The position numbers and the translations under genes were made by a program. A DNA stretch of 64,000 nt from a virus. Numbering within the stretch: the stretch's first letter is position 1; every line of letters begins with the position of its first letter. Location of the stretch: IMG/VR virus record IMGVR_UViG_3300050821_002279, positions 1 through 64,000 of that record; one strand, written 5' to 3'. This document shows positions 1 through 43,746 of this stretch, piece after piece. The notes below the pieces were generated by a model, which worked only from the letters and a program-made list of their open reading frames with translations, made no database searches and had not been told where the DNA came from.

Positions 1-107
1 ACCACACTTGCGACTCCACTTGCGACCCCACTTGCGACCACACTTGCGACCGCACTTGCGACTCCACTTGCGACCCCACTTGCGACCGCACTTGCGACCG
101 CACTTGC
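1..107 (-). repeat. 12-bp tandem repeat (about 9 copies, TCGCAAGTGnnG on minus strand) encoding SQV(R/G/E/W)
   Basis: Directly visible as cacttgcgac units on the plus strand. Confidence 0.95.
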
Positions 108-35198: not shown

Positions 35199-35830
35199 AA
35201 ATGAAGCTTAGTCGCATTGGCGGCGTACCGTATGGTGGCCGATACGAAATCAACCGCCCCGATCTCGGAATGGTCGGCATGGGCACGGCGTTCGATATGC
35301 TTGAGACCAACGTGCGCAGATATCGTAAGGCCAACGGCATCCCAACCGGCCTTGGTTTTTCAGAAGAACTTGAGCAAGAAATTTGTAAGCTCTACCCCCA
35401 GGAATGTGAGCACGCCGATCCAAATCTGCCGTCAAATATCCGGCTCAGCTTTGAAGATGTCGTTCACGGCACGCAAGTGCTGGCATCGTTTAAACTCGCC
35501 GGATCTCCTTTAGTTCCCAAGCAAGAGGCGGAAAGACGCGCTTCGATTTGTTCTCAATGCAAGCTTCTTGTTCCATTTGCGCGGCCTTGCGGCGGGCTAT
35601 GCGGAGCATTGAAGACCGCCGTGGACGAACTCGTTGGCGGATACGAAATCGCTTTCGACAACGATTTGCGGGCGTGCGGTATCTGTCATTGCTTCGCCGC
35701 CTCACAGGTGAGGATACCATACGAACACCTCGAAAAAGGGCTCACCGAGCAGATGAAGGTGCAGTTTCAGGCGGCAAAGGCTGCGTGGGGGTGTTGGAAG
35801 GTGCAAGATTCTTCCACATCCGCCCCTTGA
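35195..35830 (+). CDS. Cys-rich conserved phage protein
   Basis: RASICSQC...CGGLC...LRACGICHC...CW. Confidence 0.7.
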   Translation: MKMKLSRIGGVPYGGRYEINRPDLGMVGMGTAFDMLETNVRRYRKANGIPTGLGFSEELEQEICKLYPQECEHADPNLPSNIRLSFEDVVHGTQVLASFKLAGSPLVPKQEAERRASICSQCKLLVPFARPCGGLCGALKTAVDELVGGYEIAFDNDLRACGICHCFAASQVRIPYEHLEKGLTEQMKVQFQAAKAAWGCWKVQDSSTSAP

Positions 35831-36437
35831 TAATATTGCGGATGGTCTCACGAAGAACTCCGCACTCCTTCGCCATGCCAGCCACAAGGCCCCATTTAGA
35901 TTTACTTGAATTGTAGCGCTGTCTTATTTTCAAAACTTGCTCCTCGGTAAACTTTGTAGTAACCGGGTGTTTCCTTGGTGGTTCGGTGAGAATTCGCTCG
36001 TCAGACCATCCTAGTTTCTTTCTTTGGTGGATTAGTTTTATAGATATGCCTGTTATTGTTTCCCATTCTTTGGCGTGGAGTGTTTGACCTTCGAACGTTA
36101 ACAAACTCCTCGGTCTCCGATTCAGCGCTTGTTCATTTGGATTTGCCCACCGGCAATTCATGGGCCAATTGTTAGCAATGCATTCAGGACACTGACCGCA
36201 CGAATAATGACCGTCATTATTTTTCCGATCTAACGATCTCCCTTCAGGACATGGCCCCATTATAGCCATGAAATTCAACTTGTCTTTAAAACCCTCACAC
36301 ATCTTAATTCCGCGACCTCCGTAGGCAAAATAATTCCAGCATTTCGGATTGCTGGTTCTTGCAAAGGCACTCCTTTGCGCGTGAAAAGCTCTAATTACTT
36401 CCTTGAAATGGACTACTTGGTTTTCAAACGGTTTCAT
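35742..36437 (-). CDS. HNH homing endonuclease (YGGRGI type)
   Basis: YGGRGIKMC...MGPCPEGRSLDRKNNDGHY...NCRWA..EQALNRR; C-terminal HTH. Confidence 0.9.
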   Translation of the reverse strand: MKPFENQVVHFKEVIRAFHAQRSAFARTSNPKCWNYFAYGGRGIKMCEGFKDKLNFMAIMGPCPEGRSLDRKNNDGHYSCGQCPECIANNWPMNCRWANPNEQALNRRPRSLLTFEGQTLHAKEWETITGISIKLIHQRKKLGWSDERILTEPPRKHPVTTKFTEEQVLKIRQRYNSSKSKWGLVAGMAKECGVLRETIRNIIKGRMWKNLAPSNTPTQPLPPETAPSSAR

Positions 36438-36594
36438 AACAAAACTCCGCGAAACAGGTTGTAACGTTCGGCCCATTTGAGGCAAAACACCCGAAACGCG
36501 GAGCTAAATTGTCTTGATTATTAAGGTAAAACGAACCAAACGTTACGGTGTGAGCATAAAACTTAACGCAAACCAAGTCAACCAAGGAGTTTAA

Positions 36595-38874
36595 ATGTCT
36601 TACGTCGGCGGAGAAGGTGATTACGGCTTGGAGAGTCTCCAGCTAAAAGAAAACGGAGGCGTTGCGGTTCCCGAGACGCGCATGAAGTCTGCGGCCCAGG
36701 TGCAAGACTTTGGCCGTCGCCTGTGGTTCAATGATGAGAAACGTTCCTTAAAAAGAGGCAAGGTAAATGGGCTCGTCGGTGGTTTTCCGCCGTACCGCAA
36801 TTCGAAGCTTCGGGATGCTGGGCTCGCGGCCAACTGTAACGCCAACTTCGGCACCGCTTCTGCCTACATGGAGAACGGTTCAGGAGCATACTACGATCTT
36901 TTCTCCGAAGCCCCCGGCACTGTTGGCATAAAAACCTCTCACGGCACGGATGAGCAAAGAGATGATTATTCCCGCATCATGTCGTCTGAAGCCGATAAGA
37001 TTTTCGCCAAAGACGATCTTTGGGATTACGAGATGCAAAGGAGTCAATGGGAAATGACGCTGCACGGTCCCGGGCCATTAATCTTCGAAGATGCTTTCAA
37101 AGTGCTTCCGCGTGCTGTCGGGGCTGGCGATTTCAAAGTGCCCGAACGAACCAAGGCTGATGCCGGGTATTACGAAATTGTTTGGGCTGATGTCGATTAT
37201 TACCCGCCAGAGCTGTACCAGTTTATCAAAAACGAGGCGGCGGCGGCTCAGGTTGGATGGGATGTCGATTACACTCAGCGTTGCATTGCAAACGCGATGG
37301 ATATTCGGCAACCAGAGCAGCGCGGGTACGACTGGGAATTTTACCAACAGGAAATCAAGAACAACAGTCTTAGCTATTACGACGATTCAAAGGTTATTCA
37401 CGTCGGCATTTGCTGGTGGAAAGAGTTCGATGGCAGGATTACCCAGGCAATCGTTGAGCGGGAGAGCACAACGGCAGAAGCTAGCACGGACGATTTGAGC
37501 AAGGGCGATGGGGGCGGGGTTAAATTCCTGTTCATCCACATAGGCCGGTACGCGAACTTTCGGGAAGCGGTTCATCCGATGTACTTCGACCGTGGCAACG
37601 GCGGGTACCATCATTCGGTCACGGGGCTTGGCTCGAAGATGTATTCGGCGATGGAATTCGAAAATCGTGGCCTTTGCCGCCTCTGGGACGGCGTATTCGC
37701 CCCCAAAGTCCTCTTCAAGCCGACAACCACGGAAGCCTCTCAGAAGATGCAGCTTGCCCACATGGGCAACTACGGCGTCATTCCCGCTGGATGGGAGGCA
37801 GAGGACATGCCGATTAATGGTTATATCAACGAGGGCTTGGCGATGTACCGGGCATCGTCGGACCTGATGCGCTCGAATCTTTCGAATTATCGGCAGCAAC
37901 CGGAGCCACAGAAACCCGGAAACCCGGAAACAAAGTTTGGTCGTCAACTCGATGCTGCCGCGCAATCCAGCCTTTCGAAAACCACGTTTAATCGGTACTA
38001 CCGACAGCTTGATTTGCTTTACGCCGAGATTGTTCGACGGCTTTGCAATCTCAACTCGACGGATAAACGCGCTCAAGAATTTCAGCAGCGTTGCATGGAT
38101 CAAGGCGTTCCAAAGGAATGCTTCGGTCGAATTGAAAGTGTGGAAGCAATTCGGGTCGTTGGCGAAGGCAGCGCGTTTCTTCGAAAATCTTCTCTTGGAG
38201 AGATGGGCAGTCTTGTGCCTGGATTACCAGAAGAAGGACAGCAAGCCTGGAAAGACGATATGATTGCCGCGACGTGCGGTCAACGCAGCGTCTCGCGGTA
38301 CAACCCAAGGAAGACGCCGGGGAAGATGCCGAATGACCAGCAATTCATGGCGCTCGAAGGCGTTTGCATGATGAAGAACGGCATTCCGCCGATTGTCACG
38401 TCATCGCAGAACGCGGTTACTTTTGCAGCCGCATATCTAAACGCTGGCGTGCAAGCCCTGCAAAGCGTCCAGAAGGGCGGAAACCCGGCAGAAGTATTGA
38501 AGTTCCTGGGACTGTGCGGACCCGCGATTCTGGCGCATCTAAAGCGATTTGCCAAAGATCCGTTGCGGCAGCAGGTTTTCAAGGCGATCTTAAAACAGTT
38601 TCAGCAGTTGGCTAAACTCACAGACCAATTGAAGAAAAAAGTTCAACAGATGCAGCAAAAGCAGAAGGAACAACAAGACAAGACGCAACAAGCGATGTCC
38701 GACCAGCAGATCGCCACTCAAAAGTTGAAGGGTGACGAAGCCAGAAAAAACGCGAAGCTTCAATTCCAAATCAAGAGGGATGCAATTAAAACGCGCTCTC
38801 AACTCGCCATTGCAGACGCCCAAGCGGCTTCACAGATTCATAGAAGTAATTCGTTAGCTGCTTTTCAAGAATAA
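36595..38874 (+). CDS. portal protein
   Basis: 759 aa after TerL, AAGGAG RBS, helical N-terminus, Q-rich coiled-coil C-terminal barrel typical of podovirus portals. Confidence 0.75.
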   Translation: MSYVGGEGDYGLESLQLKENGGVAVPETRMKSAAQVQDFGRRLWFNDEKRSLKRGKVNGLVGGFPPYRNSKLRDAGLAANCNANFGTASAYMENGSGAYYDLFSEAPGTVGIKTSHGTDEQRDDYSRIMSSEADKIFAKDDLWDYEMQRSQWEMTLHGPGPLIFEDAFKVLPRAVGAGDFKVPERTKADAGYYEIVWADVDYYPPELYQFIKNEAAAAQVGWDVDYTQRCIANAMDIRQPEQRGYDWEFYQQEIKNNSLSYYDDSKVIHVGICWWKEFDGRITQAIVERESTTAEASTDDLSKGDGGGVKFLFIHIGRYANFREAVHPMYFDRGNGGYHHSVTGLGSKMYSAMEFENRGLCRLWDGVFAPKVLFKPTTTEASQKMQLAHMGNYGVIPAGWEAEDMPINGYINEGLAMYRASSDLMRSNLSNYRQQPEPQKPGNPETKFGRQLDAAAQSSLSKTTFNRYYRQLDLLYAEIVRRLCNLNSTDKRAQEFQQRCMDQGVPKECFGRIESVEAIRVVGEGSAFLRKSSLGEMGSLVPGLPEEGQQAWKDDMIAATCGQRSVSRYNPRKTPGKMPNDQQFMALEGVCMMKNGIPPIVTSSQNAVTFAAAYLNAGVQALQSVQKGGNPAEVLKFLGLCGPAILAHLKRFAKDPLRQQVFKAILKQFQQLAKLTDQLKKKVQQMQQKQKEQQDKTQQAMSDQQIATQKLKGDEARKNAKLQFQIKRDAIKTRSQLAIADAQAASQIHRSNSLAAFQE

Positions 38875-38911
38875 AAAGAAAATGACTGCCCAAAAAATCA
38901 GGCAGTCATTT
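38872..38911 (-). terminator. intrinsic terminator closing the pentamer array (possibly bidirectional)
   Basis: Minus strand AAATGACTGCC-loop-GGCAGTCATTT followed by TCTTTT. Confidence 0.8.
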
Positions 38912-39320
38912 ATCTGACCACACCATGACTTTACTTACCAGAGATTAGCTCACCATAGCGCACTGCATCCTGCCAGTCCCGAACTTGCCAATCCTGATTG
39001 TTCCAAACCTTACCGGCTTTTCAGCCCGTGCCTTACCAAACCAAACCGGACCCGGCCTGAGAATGGAGAGCCACAACCCGCCAAGTCTCTCCATGCCATA
39101 TCATGCAACTCCACTACCTACCGCCCCACGCTCGACCTCTGCCAACCGGAACGCGCCTAAGCAGACCGGCCAAAAGGCCCGTACCAAACCTAACACTTCC
39201 GAACCACTCCGAAGCCAGCCTGACCGCACTCAACCATTCCAAACCATGCACGATCTCGCCGAAACCAGCCTTTGCTAACCGGACACGAGCCCACACTACC
39301 GCACCACTCCTGAGCGTGTC
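38910..39320 (-). ncRNA. downstream GGN-NN pentamer array (3 units: 29, 29 and 21 pentamers); putative guide RNAs
   Basis: Strict 5-nt register within each unit; 46 of 79 pentamers start with GG. Units are separated by GGCC-TTTT-GGCC and GGCT-GAAA-AGCC hairpins. Confidence 0.8.
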
Positions 39321-39322
39321 CG

Positions 39323-39955
39323 TCACAGATCGAGGATTTTGAAACCCACGATCTGAAATCTTCCGAAAGTTGGACGAAAATCCCCAACGCCGATTAACTT
39401 TCCGGCCTGCGTGATAACCTCGTTAAGCAAAGTTGGACTGACATACTCGGGAAGGTTGACCATTAATTGAATTTTGGCCGTCCACCCAGCTTTCATCGCC
39501 GGTCTCGTTCGAGTGATCGCATTTCGCTGGATCACAACCCGTCTTTTATCTTCGTAATCCCAATCCTTAACGCCAAGGCTTGCGAGGTTGGTAACGCTCA
39601 CAACCGCCGCCTTGAACAGATCCGCAGCAGACTTTCTCGGACTTCGCGGGTCTTGGCGAAACTTGGATGCGGCGATGATACTCATCCGTAGGTACTCACC
39701 GGGGATGGCAAGGTTGCCTTTCTCGTCACGATAAACATAACTTTCCAAGTTATCCGACTTCTTTGCAGCACTGCCCTTCTTGGCTTTGGCCTTTTCTTCA
39801 ACCGCTTCACAATTCCAACGGTGGAAAAGAAGATCCGCACTTCCCTGAATCTGAATTTCCGCAATGTACGGAATTTCCATTTCGATTGCATCTTTAGCAC
39901 CATTTGTGGGACAACGATCCCCGCCGAGTTCTGTGGTTTTTGTCGCTGATTTCAT
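39323..39955 (-). CDS. solitary Cas7/RAMP-like protein (210 aa)
   Basis: IQIQGSADLLFH first strand, NLAIPGEYLR (IPG motif), RRVVIQ..ITRTRP thumb, W.A...L strand, C-terminal G-rich loop AGKLIGVGDFRPTFGRF. Confidence 0.8.
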   Translation of the reverse strand: MKSATKTTELGGDRCPTNGAKDAIEMEIPYIAEIQIQGSADLLFHRWNCEAVEEKAKAKKGSAAKKSDNLESYVYRDEKGNLAIPGEYLRMSIIAASKFRQDPRSPRKSAADLFKAAVVSVTNLASLGVKDWDYEDKRRVVIQRNAITRTRPAMKAGWTAKIQLMVNLPEYVSPTLLNEVITQAGKLIGVGDFRPTFGRFQIVGFKILDL

Positions 39956-39958
39956 AAT

Positions 39959-40028
39959 TAACCATTCCACGCCGTAACACGCCGCGACTGGCCAAGGCAA
40001 TGACGGCACTGCCGCATCCAGCCCTGCC
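39959..40028 (-). ncRNA. upstream GGN-NN pentamer unit (14 pentamers)
   Basis: GGCAG GGCTG GATGC GGCAG TGCCG TCATT GCCTT GGCCA GTCGC GGCGT GTTAC GGCGT GGAAT GGTTA, ending 3 nt before the ATG. Confidence 0.7.
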
Positions 40029-40156
40029 GTGTTTCTGGCAACGCACCCGCCCGTCGATTGCTGTAACGCAGCAGTTGGGAACCGCTACCAAACGGCGAAC
40101 GAGTGCAAATTTGTTTTGGTTGTTTCATCCGGTTACAGTCGGACTTTACGCTTGCT

Positions 40157-40184
40157 ACTTTATCAAAAATGGCATTACTGTCAA
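40157..40184 (-). promoter_or_regulatory. sigma70 promoter of the Cas7-like unit
   Basis: TTGACA-N16-TAAAGT with extended -10 TG. Confidence 0.7.
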
Positions 40185-40534
40185 CTAGAATTTATGCCCG
40201 AAGGTTCCACCGATACCGACGATCAAGGTTTGCCAGAAGACGAGCCGGATGATTCTGATGAAGACGAGTGCGAAACTCCAGCCGATATTTTCCGCAGCCG
40301 CACCGAAGACTTAGGCGATAACCCGCAAACACGATAATGCCAGATAGAGAACAGGGTAAAATGCTTATGAGTGACTTCGGCTGGTGCCTGGAGTCGGATA
40401 AGCCTGAGCGCAAAGACCTTTTATGGGTGCCTACGGGGACGAAGGATATTTACGTTTGGCAAAGCGATGAAGACGGCTGGATAAAGATTCGACCGCCGCA
40501 GACGTTTCCGTGCAGAGAACTCAACCACGGTTAG

Positions 40535-42834: not shown

Positions 42835-43746
42835 ATGAAAACCACAGTCATTCACCACAGCGCAGACTACGACGGCATTTTCTGCCGTGAAATTGCACGG
42901 AAGTTTTTGACTGAAGCTGAGTTGATCGGATGGGATTTTGCCGATCCGCCACTGCCGGTCCCTGAAGGAAACGTGCTTGTCATGGATCTGCCACTGGACG
43001 CAACGTTTGGTGGAAAGTCTGGACAGTTCAACATGGGAGTCGTAAACGCATGGGAGTCCAACCGCTTGATTTGGATTGATCATCATCAAAGCGCGATAAA
43101 AACGCACCCCCCTGAAGTTGGCGGCTATCAAATCGACGGCGTTGCAGCATGTCGGTTGGCGTGGCAATGGTTCACTCAGACCGGACCCGACAATCCCCCC
43201 AGCGATCCGGCGCTTGCTAAAAAGGAAGACTTCATAGAGCGCAGGGTTTCAGAGCCAATCGCTGTTCGCCTCGCCGGTGAATACGACATTTGGGACAAAC
43301 GCGATCCTAACGCTGAACTGTTTCAGCATGGATTGAGAAGCCAGGAGCTTTCGCGTAACGAATGGGAATGGTTGCTCAGCATGAATCCCGGGGCAGTTCA
43401 AGTAGTTGAAAAGCTACTCAATCAGGGCTCTGCGGTTCAATATGCTCAACGCAAGCAAGACGAGTTCATTGCCAAAAGCCGCTCATTCGACGTGGAATGG
43501 GAGGGCTTGAAGTTCATGGCGATTAACGCCGTGCGCTGCAACTCTCTGACGTTCGAGGCCGCAACCCGTGCAGACCACGACGCGCTTATGGGCTTCTACT
43601 GGAACGGCAAATTCTGGAACGTGAGCCTGTACCATGCGCCGCACCGGAAGGATTTGGACCTGTCGGCCATCGCAGTGAAGTACGGCGGCGGCGGTCACAG
43701 GGGAGCATGCGGTTTCAGGGCTGATAAACTTCCGTTTATTCCGTAG
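42835..43746 (+). CDS. DHH/DHHA1 phosphoesterase (NrnB-like)
   Basis: HHSADYDG, VMDL, WIDHH, YDIW, VSLY, GGGGHRGACGF. Confidence 0.9.
   Translation: MKTTVIHHSADYDGIFCREIARKFLTEAELIGWDFADPPLPVPEGNVLVMDLPLDATFGGKSGQFNMGVVNAWESNRLIWIDHHQSAIKTHPPEVGGYQIDGVAACRLAWQWFTQTGPDNPPSDPALAKKEDFIERRVSEPIAVRLAGEYDIWDKRDPNAELFQHGLRSQELSRNEWEWLLSMNPGAVQVVEKLLNQGSAVQYAQRKQDEFIAKSRSFDVEWEGLKFMAINAVRCNSLTFEAATRADHDALMGFYWNGKFWNVSLYHAPHRKDLDLSAIAVKYGGGGHRGACGFRADKLPFIP

What the first reader, a model, noticed from the sequence alone, without database searches (positions are those of the whole stretch)
38872..40184. Solitary Cas7/RAMP-like gene with flanking 5-nt-periodic GGN-NN arrays: candidate RNA-guided system with a gapped code
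Seen: a self-contained leftward unit inserted against the direction of its neighbours. It runs promoter (40184-40157), structured leader, 14 pentamers (40028-39959), a 210-aa gene, 79 more pentamers (39320-38910), terminator. 54 of 93 pentamers begin with GG and nearly all others keep a G at position 1 or 2, while positions 4-5 vary freely. On the plus strand this is visible as CC ending many 10-mers from 39180 to 39310. Established: the protein has RAMP/Cas7 hallmarks (IPG motif, thumb, C-terminal G-rich loop GVGDFRPTFGRF), and Cas7 polymerises along RNA with a fixed per-subunit footprint. No other cas gene or CRISPR repeat is in the window. Inference: each subunit binds the constant GGN triplet and displays the NN dinucleotide, so the array encodes a non-contiguous target. 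With no nuclease present, it may act by binding or silencing, e.g. against competing phages. From memory this resembles the recently reported viral GGY/NN 'VIPR' loci, which I cannot verify here, so novelty must be checked.
Basis: partly seen in the sequence, partly recalled or inferred. Interest (0 to 1): 0.97.

Follow-up and report, generated by a model that had tools for sequence, protein, structure and literature searches.

The report
Phage VIPR locus: Vipr plus GGYNN guides
This phage carries a compact VIPR system: one Cas7-like protein gene flanked by 5-base-periodic guide-RNA arrays. It is real and well formed, but the class was described in three 2026 preprints, so this is a new member and not a new kind.

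Summary
A GGYNN hidden-Markov scan of the whole 76,955-nt phage genome finds only two tracts. Both lie on the minus strand and flank the 210-aa gene at 39955-39323: 40031-39961 and 39313-38914. Together they hold 91 full pentamers, of which 53 start GG. Positions 4-5 carry almost no information.

The protein matches one solved structure by sequence, the SUSP1 Vipr protein (profile E 6e-11). All published GGY-contact residues that I could align are kept. Its model folds like Csm3/Cas7.

Fourteen of 15 homologous phage loci carry same-strand GGYNN tracts next to the gene. No accessory (vap) gene is conserved among them.

The published read-2-skip-1 code works in this clade. A guide in one relative matches the G-loop codons of rival vipr genes: 20/20 in one relative and 19/20 in this window. 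The 0-skip and 2-skip controls give nothing.

I found no targets for the window's own guides.

VIPR systems were published in 2026 (bioRxiv 10.64898/2026.04.26.720920, .720927 and 2026.10.15.759431).

Variant features here are the lack of a vap gene, 20-31-unit register blocks punctuated by tetraloop hairpins, and a leader tract that abuts the start codon.

The parts
40157..40184 (-). Sigma-70-type promoter, TTGACA-16-TAAAGT with TG before the -10
   Evidence: The promoter and leader are alignable with relatives L002 and L004.
40032..40150 (-). Conserved 5' leader of the vipr transcript
   Evidence: Alignable among the window, L002 and L004. The consensus fold rests on only 3 sequences and is weak.
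40120..40139 (+). Site in the locus's own promoter-proximal DNA (about +11 to +30) that matches leader-tract units 6-12 at 13/14 under the NNx code
   Evidence: 0 of 500 unit-order shuffles reach this score. The match is not conserved in the closest relative, so it may be chance.
39961..40031 (-). Upstream GGYNN tract of 13 full units (candidate vrRNA U). It runs into the ribosome-binding region and start codon.
   Evidence: The homologous tract in L002 occupies the same place.
39323..39955 (-). vipr gene, 210 aa (P0001): a RAMP protein with G-loop GVGDFRPTFGRF
39357..39385 (+). Predicted target site inside vipr (G-loop codons) for a rival phage's guide (L005:3597-3671). Match is 19/20 with the skipped base on codon wobble positions.
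39176..39313 (-). Downstream array, register block A, 27 units
39168..39180 (-). Tetraloop hairpin 1, GGGCC-TTTT-GGCC, at the first register break
   Evidence: The same motif sits in the L002 array.
39018..39172 (-). Register block B, 31 units. It contains a possible internal end (GGCATGG) and the hairpin GGAGAG...CTCTCC at 39092-39065.
39015..39027 (-). Tetraloop hairpin 2, GGGCT-GAAA-AGCC, at the second register break. It carries a compensatory stem change relative to hairpin 1.
38915..39014 (-). Register block C, 20 units
38880..38911 (-). Intrinsic terminator that closes the unit

Best explanation
This is a phage-borne VIPR (Viral Interference Programmable Repeat) system in its minimal form.

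Proposed mechanism, by homology to SUSP1:
1. One promoter drives a leader, a 13-unit GGYNN tract, the vipr gene, and a 78-unit GGYNN array that ends at a terminator.
2. Vipr protomers polymerise along the transcript or its processed pieces, one protomer per pentamer. Each sequesters a GGY and presents the NN dinucleotide.
3. The filament then reads double-stranded DNA in a read-2-skip-1 register and blocks transcription of the bound gene.
4. The locus has no vap gene and no nuclease, so the expected outcome is silencing and not cleavage. The likely targets are competing phages or satellites in the same host.

What is shown here: the anatomy of the locus; protein homology and fold; conservation of the RNA-contact residues; the gene-array association across relatives; and a working NNx code in this clade.

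What is inferred: transcription, processing at the two tetraloop hairpins, RNP formation, and the identity of the window's targets.
For: - Sequence homology: the only PDB sequence match is SUSP1 Vipr (36pp), E 1.5e-5 for the single sequence and 6.2e-11 for the profile, covering residues 5-188 of 202.
- Contact residues: the SUSP1 residues named in the cryo-EM paper align as H17->H45, K33->K60, E71->E87, R138->R151, D177->D192, W178->F193 and R179->R194. H45, K60, D192 and R194 are invariant and R151 and F193 nearly invariant in 11 homologues; E87 varies.
- Fold: the AF2 model has pLDDT 79. The top Foldseek hits are Csm3/Cas7 of type III-A and type VII complexes, E about 2e-6, probability 1.00.
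- Tracts: the GGYNN tracts are unique in the genome and flank the gene on its own strand.
- Relatives: 14 of 15 homologous loci carry same-strand tracts beside the gene. The pooled logo is G 90%, G 80%, Y 91%, N, N.
- Specificity of the association: across about 640 kb of related phage records, tracts occur almost only next to vipr.
- Code: in all-against-all matching, the 1-nt-skip rule gives 20 hits of at least 18/20, and the 0-skip and 2-skip controls give none.
- The anti-vipr guide: 19 of those 20 hits come from one 15-unit guide in L005, aimed at the G-loop codons of rival vipr genes with skips on wobble positions. Its match to its own vipr is lower, 18/20. This mirrors published behaviour in the SUSP1 family.
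- No self-targeting by the window's guides over 10 units.
Against: - No target was found for any of the window's guides in relatives, IMG/VR, GTDB genomes or metagenomes.
- The window's units are more degenerate than those of most relatives: 58% start GG here, against about 80-90% G at positions 1 and 2 in the pooled relatives.
- There is no long invariant 3' tail or pseudoknot of the type II kind, only 13-nt hairpins with weak folding z-scores.
- Register blocks of 20-31 units exceed the 9-16 repeats reported for type II, so the true vrRNA boundaries are unknown.
- One close relative (L004/G001, a complete genome) has vipr but no tract at all.
- There are no expression data.
Confidence: 0.9

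Rival explanations
1. The locus is a decaying or inactive VIPR remnant. The gene is intact, but the arrays have drifted and no longer make functional guides.
For: Only 53 of 91 units start GG and 40 are full GGY, against a pooled 90%/80%/91% in relatives. No targets were found. Relative G001 keeps vipr with no arrays, which shows that arrays can be lost.
Against: The register is held without slips for 27, 31 and 20 units, which drift by indels would break. The promoter, terminator and contact residues are intact. The closest relative, L002, shows the same style of degeneracy. The VIPR paper reports frequent internal degeneracy in functional vrRNAs.
Confidence: 0.07
2. The tracts are mainly cis-regulatory binding sites for the protein on its own mRNA, with the 5'UTR tract overlapping the ribosome-binding site and the rest in the 3'UTR. 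On this reading the unit regulates itself instead of guiding DNA recognition in trans.
For: The leader tract runs to within 4 nt of the ATG, and its last units supply the only SD-like purines. Leader units 6-12 match the locus's own +11 to +30 DNA at 13/14 under the NNx code.
Against: A 400-nt, 78-unit downstream array with free NN positions is far more than autoregulation needs. In other relatives the upstream tracts are separated from the SD or are terminated before it. The self-match is absent at the homologous site in the closest relative. A relative's guide has clear trans targets.
Confidence: 0.03

Closest known systems
VIPR systems, especially type II SUSP1 and P. fulva (bioRxiv 10.64898/2026.04.26.720920, .720927 and 10.64898/2026.10.15.759431)
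   Same: - A Vipr RAMP protein with detectable sequence homology and conserved GGY-contact residues.
- Same-strand GGY/NN pentamer arrays both upstream and downstream of vipr.
- Hypervariable NN positions.
- A phage host genome with no CRISPR array and no other cas genes.
- A working 1-nt-skip code in the clade, including anti-vipr guides with a lower score against self.
   Different: - Distant in sequence: only 24-28% identity to the Pseudomonas phage homologues by tblastn.
- No vap gene.
- No long invariant pseudoknot tail. Instead there are 13-nt tetraloop hairpins at the only register breaks.
- Register blocks of 20-31 units, against 9-16 repeats in type II.
- The leader tract abuts the start codon.
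- The type (I-VII) could not be assigned, because the paper's tree and tables are not held. Lack of vap suggests type I by elimination, which is my inference. No hammerhead ribozyme was found.
CRISPR-Cas Cas7 backbone subunits (Csm3 of type III-A; Cas7 of type VII)
   Same: The RRM/RAMP fold with thumb and G-rich loop (Foldseek E about 2e-6, TM about 0.5). Polymerisation along a guide RNA with a fixed footprint is established for Cas7 and for SUSP1 Vipr.
   Different: There is no CRISPR repeat-spacer array, no Cas5, Cas6, Cas10 or large subunit, and no adaptation genes. The footprint is 5 nt with 3 bases sequestered, against 6 nt with 1 base flipped. The target is dsDNA read as a gapped code. 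Identity is 11-16%.

Membership tests
VIPR | Vipr protein homologous to a characterised Vipr | tested here: met
   phmmer E 1.5e-5 and profile E 6.2e-11 to PDB 36pp 'SUSP1 Vipr protein'. It is the only PDB match.
VIPR | RAMP fold: single RRM core, thumb and glycine-rich loop | tested here: met
   AF2 model with pLDDT 79. Csm3/Cas7 are the top hits at probability 1.00. The G-loop GVGDFRPTFGRF is conserved. The beta-hairpin at about 134-154 has a low-confidence tip, consistent with a thumb.
VIPR | Residues that bind G1, G2 and Y3 and the target backbone in SUSP1 Vipr | tested here: met
   H45, K60, E87, R151, D192, F193 (Trp in SUSP1) and R194 align to H17, K33, E71, R138, D177, W178 and R179. 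This rests on alignment only.
VIPR | Tandem GGY/NN (YNNGG) pentamers, at least 4 units, flanking vipr on the same strand | tested here: met
   13 + 27 + 31 + 20 units. They are the only such tracts in the genome. 14 of 15 homologous loci carry them too.
VIPR | NN positions hypervariable while GGY is conserved | tested here: met
   Positions 4 and 5 carry 0.01 and 0.03 bits, against 1.22, 0.63 and 0.34 bits at positions 1-3. Positions 4-5 are also near-uniform in the pooled relatives.
VIPR | Conserved structured 3' tail capping each vrRNA (type II: pseudoknot) | tested here: inconclusive
   Only short hairpins of the form GGGCY-NNNN-RGCC at the register breaks. Other subclades have 17-45-nt separators. 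The paper allows other architectures, including staggered arrays, ribozyme-interspersed arrays and single vrRNAs.
VIPR | Accessory vap gene (typical, not universal) | tested here: not met
   Apart from vipr itself, no ORF is shared beyond close relatives beside the gene. The window unit holds a single gene. The paper lists stand-alone vipr genes among VIPR systems, so this does not exclude membership.
VIPR | Noncontiguous 1-nt-skip (NNx) match of guides to natural targets | tested here: inconclusive
   Met for the clade: the L005 guide matches rival vipr genes at 18-20/20 only at skip 1. For the window's own guides no target was found.
VIPR | vrRNA expression, co-purification with Vipr, and programmable repression | not testable with these tools
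   Needs sRNA-seq, pull-down and reporter assays.
CRISPR-Cas (class 1) | CRISPR repeat-spacer array and further cas genes next to the Cas7-like gene | tested here: not met
   No such repeat by TRF. PADLOC and NCBIfam do not recognise the protein. The neighbours are structural or other phage genes.

The most novel reading that the evidence does not exclude
The leader tract may be a self-directed, autoregulatory guide.

- It is part of the vipr 5'UTR and overlaps the ribosome-binding region.
- Its units 6-12 match the locus's own DNA at about +11 to +30 from the predicted start, 13/14 under the NNx code.
- Vipr would therefore throttle its own promoter or its own translation.

Together with tetraloop-hairpin punctuation of unusually long (20-31-unit) register blocks, this would be a vap-less VIPR architecture that the preprint text I could read does not describe.
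Probability: 0.15. Interest if true: 0.55.

Novelty: new member of a known kind. Interest (0 to 1): 0.35.

Why it matters
This locus gives an independent, purely computational confirmation that the VIPR gene-array association and the read-2-skip-1 code hold in a clade far from the characterised SUSP1 and P. fulva systems. That clade has about 150 clusters at 50% identity with E below 1e-30 and about 2,560 with E below 1e-3 in metagenomes.

It also shows inter-phage anti-vipr targeting in this clade, and the window's own vipr is a predicted victim.

The locus is a compact one-gene system of about 1.3 kb. It could serve as a test case for three questions: minimal VIPR function without a vap gene, how long arrays are cut into guides, and possible autoregulation.

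It does not open a new category.

Tried and rejected
- **Targets of the window's guides: none found.**
  - Own genome: best 16/20, the same as the controls.
  - 6-kb relative loci and full relative records: no hit above the controls.
  - IMG/VR exact seeds: the 10-unit seeds A14-23 and B2-11 gave 0 hits. The 8-unit seeds A3-10, C1-8 and U4-11 gave 1, 14 and 4 hits, and none extended beyond the seed.
  - GTDB genomes, seed A14-22: 9 hits, none extended.
  - Metagenomes, seed C1-10: two homologous contigs at 20/20. The DNA is ORF-poor and 46% GC, the match does not extend, and no other guide converges on it. About this many chance hits are expected, so I treat it as chance.
- **Hammerhead or any other Rfam family in the arrays:** none, in the window or in 12 relatives.
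- **Vipr fusion protein in L014/L015 (895-aa open frame):** rejected. The frame is antisense to a major head protein gene (phrog_777, E 1.5e-66). The real vipr starts at L014:2942.
- **Conserved vap gene:** none.
- **Coding reading of the arrays:** only short ORFs of 70 aa or fewer in all frames, and a 5-nt period is incompatible with a reading frame.
- **Autoregulatory self-match:** present in the window but not at the homologous site in the closest relative.
- **Strongly structured array RNA:** z = -1.9 only, which fits a protein-bound single strand.
- **Supplementary tables of the VIPR paper:** not held, so type assignment and prior listing of this clade could not be checked.
Full report
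**Observation.** The minus strand of 38880-40184 is a self-contained unit set against plus-strand neighbours (36595-38874, and 40197 onward). It has these parts:
- a good sigma-70 promoter at 40184-40157 (TTGACA-16-TAAAGT, 10/12) and an intrinsic terminator at 38911-38880;
- one real gene between them, ATG 39955 to stop 39323, 210 aa (P0001). The homologous start in relatives confirms this ATG over the upstream GTG.

The 5-nt periodicity is real and highly specific.
- 24 of the 25 strongest period-5 windows in the 64 kb fall in 38891-39350 or at 39951.
- A 5-phase GGYNN hidden-Markov model run over both strands of the whole 76,955-nt genome returns exactly two tracts, 40031-39961 and 39313-38914. 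The window is bases 1-64000 of this single-contig virus record.
- Decoded, they give 13 + 27 + 31 + 20 = 91 full units. 53 begin GG, and 33 of the other 38 keep a G at position 1 or 2. Position 3 is a pyrimidine in 78%. Positions 4 and 5 carry 0.01 and 0.03 bits.
- Each block beats all 2000 shuffles and every other window in the genome.
- The register breaks only twice, at GGGCCTTTTGGCC (39180-39168) and GGGCTGAAAAGCC (39027-39015).

**The protein.** Pfam, NCBIfam and PADLOC give nothing. PHROGs gives a family of unknown function, phrog_4652.
- Against all PDB sequences the only hit is 36pp, 'SUSP1 Vipr protein': E 1.5e-5 for the single sequence and 6.2e-11 for a profile of 11 homologues, covering residues 5-188 of 202.
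- The cryo-EM paper names the SUSP1 contacts as H17 and D177 for G1, R138 and W178 for G2, E71/M72 and R179 for Y3, and K33 for the target backbone. By alignment these are H45, D192, R151, F193, E87/Y88, R194 and K60 here. H45, K60, D192 and R194 are invariant across the clade.
- An AlphaFold2 model (pLDDT 79, pTM 0.71) has an RRM-like core, a low-confidence hairpin tip where a thumb would sit, and the G-loop before the last strand.
- Foldseek against the PDB puts Csm3/Cas7 of type III-A and type VII complexes on top (E about 2e-6, probability 1.00, TM about 0.5, 11-16% identity).

**Relatives.** tblastn finds phage DSL-LC04 (62% identity, annotated there as an HTH regulator) and distant Pseudomonas phage homologues (24-28%). 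IMG/VR gives 14 more loci at 56-85% identity.
- Fourteen of the 15 loci carry same-strand GGYNN tracts directly upstream and/or downstream of the gene. The pooled logo from 1,222 units is G 90%, G 80%, Y 91%, N, N.
- I fetched the full records, about 640 kb including G000. Tracts occur almost only beside vipr.
- The exception is L004/G001, a complete 58.6-kb genome that shares the adjacent 759/788-aa gene with the window. It keeps the promoter, leader and vipr but has no tract anywhere.
- No neighbouring ORF is conserved across the clade, so there is no vap gene.
- Array styles differ between subclades:
  - discrete 10-15-unit guides separated by T-rich spacers (L006);
  - guides separated by a conserved element of about 45 nt (L009, L010, L013);
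  - very long uninterrupted arrays (L005, L008, L014);
  - hairpin-punctuated blocks in the window and its closest relative L002.
- A profile search of 1.84 billion cluster representatives finds 2,560 clusters at E <= 1e-3 and 151 at E <= 1e-30.

**Literature.** [quoted passage not shown] It describes the following:
- Vipr RAMPs, found mostly in phages;
- vrRNAs of 9-16 YNNGG repeats plus a tail;
- a 1-nt-skip rule for dsDNA recognition, and programmable transcriptional silencing;
- natural targets in satellites, prophages and other VIPR systems;
- seven types with six vap families, and stand-alone vipr genes;
- staggered, ribozyme-interspersed and single-guide arrays, with frequent internal degeneracy.

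10.64898/2026.04.26.720927 gives the structures. 10.64898/2026.10.15.759431 shows phage-satellite competition, and vrRNAs that target relatives' vipr genes while scoring lower against self.

**Testing the code in this clade.** I decoded the NN strings of every tract and scanned G000 plus all relatives with 10-unit windows.
- At skip 1 there are 20 hits of at least 18/20. At skip 0 and skip 2 there are none, with a maximum of 17.
- Nineteen of the 20 come from one 15-unit guide. It sits between the vipr stop and a strong terminator in L005.
- Units 2-11 of that guide match the antisense strand of the GDFRPT[Y/F]GRF codons of rival vipr genes. The scores are L004 20/20; the window 19/20 (plus strand 39357-39385); L001, L002 and L006 19/20; and its own gene 18/20.
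- Every skipped base falls on a codon wobble position.
- This reproduces the published logic in an unrelated clade, and it makes the window's vipr a predicted target of a rival phage.
- The twentieth hit, a G005 guide against G001:50688, has a core of only 9 units and is marginal.

**The window's own guides.** There is no self-target over 10 units and no target in relatives.
- Exact-seed scans of IMG/VR, GTDB genomes and metagenomes gave only hits that do not extend beyond the seed.
- The one 20/20 hit (block C units 1-10) lies in ORF-poor DNA of 46% GC. No other guide converges on it, and about that many chance hits are expected.
- Targets therefore remain unknown. The exact-seed method would miss targets that carry mismatches.

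Leader units 6-12 (TT TT CA GC GT AC GT) match the plus strand at 40120-40139, 13/14 under the NNx code. That site lies about +11 to +30 from the predicted start.
- I confirm the match. None of 500 unit-order shuffles reaches 13/14 within the 172-nt leader.
- At the homologous site of the closest relative the corresponding units match only 5/12, counted by hand. Its best local match is 11/14 on the other strand, reached by 15 of 200 shuffles.
- The tract also runs to within 4 nt of the ATG, so binding in cis could occlude the ribosome-binding site.
- Autoregulation is possible, but the match is post hoc and not conserved. I give it about 0.15.

**Verdict.** The locus is a new member of a known kind: a vap-less VIPR from a clade distant from SUSP1.

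Its variant features are tetraloop-hairpin punctuation, register blocks of 20-31 units, and a leader tract fused to the start of the gene. These may or may not fall within the published 'staggered' or type I architectures. I could not assign a type because the figures and tables are not held.

Expression, processing, RNP formation and targets are inferred and not shown.

Noticed in passing
L005:3597-3671 (IMGVR_UViG_3300043621_000102); target in window 39357-39385: A 15-unit guide in the 3'UTR of a relative's vipr matches the G-loop codons of rival vipr genes under the 1-nt-skip code: 20/20 in L004, 19/20 in the window, 18/20 in its own gene. Skipped bases fall on wobble positions. This is anti-VIPR warfare in the clade.
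   Followed up: yes
L004 / G001 (IMGVR_UViG_3300005471_000003, complete 58.6 kb with terminal repeats): This genome shares the adjacent 759/788-aa gene with the window. It keeps the promoter, leader and a 70%-identical vipr but has no GGYNN tract anywhere. It is an 'orphan Vipr', and also the best target of the L005 guide.
   Followed up: partly
L009, L010, L013 (e.g. L013:2695-2730, L010:1598-1637): In this subclade the guides are separated by a conserved element of about 45 nt (GGGCTGC-NAT-GCAGCGTACAG...CTTCTGTGCGATG). It is probably a tail or processing element. Rfam finds no ribozyme there.
   Followed up: partly
L001 = OR003939.1 22429-23046 (phage DSL-LC04, WJZ48083.1): This Vipr homologue (62% identity) is annotated in GenBank as a 'helix-turn-helix transcriptional regulator', which is a likely misannotation. 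GGYNN tracts lie upstream of it, and a 147-aa ORF overlaps its stop codon.
   Followed up: partly
window 40197-40339 (+): A small, extremely acidic ORF of 46 aa, rich in D and E, lies divergent from the vipr promoter. It has no family match. Its composition resembles a DNA mimic. Function unknown.
   Followed up: partly
window 1-107: A 12-nt tandem repeat (ACCCCACTTGCG, 8.9 copies, 90% matches) sits at the very start of the record. It may be a terminal or origin-type repeat.
   Followed up: no
L014:892-3579 (+) and L015: An 895-aa open frame ending in vipr looked like a fusion protein. It is the antisense frame of a major head protein gene (L014:919-2730, minus strand). The real vipr starts at L014:2942.
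   Followed up: yes
window 35742-36485 (-) and 42835-43746 (+): The neighbourhood includes an HNH endonuclease (phrog_3377) and a DHH phosphoesterase (phrog_4771). The adjacent 759-aa and 448-aa proteins match no Pfam or PHROG family; the 448-aa one has only a sub-threshold NCBIfam purD hit (E 0.005).
   Followed up: partly
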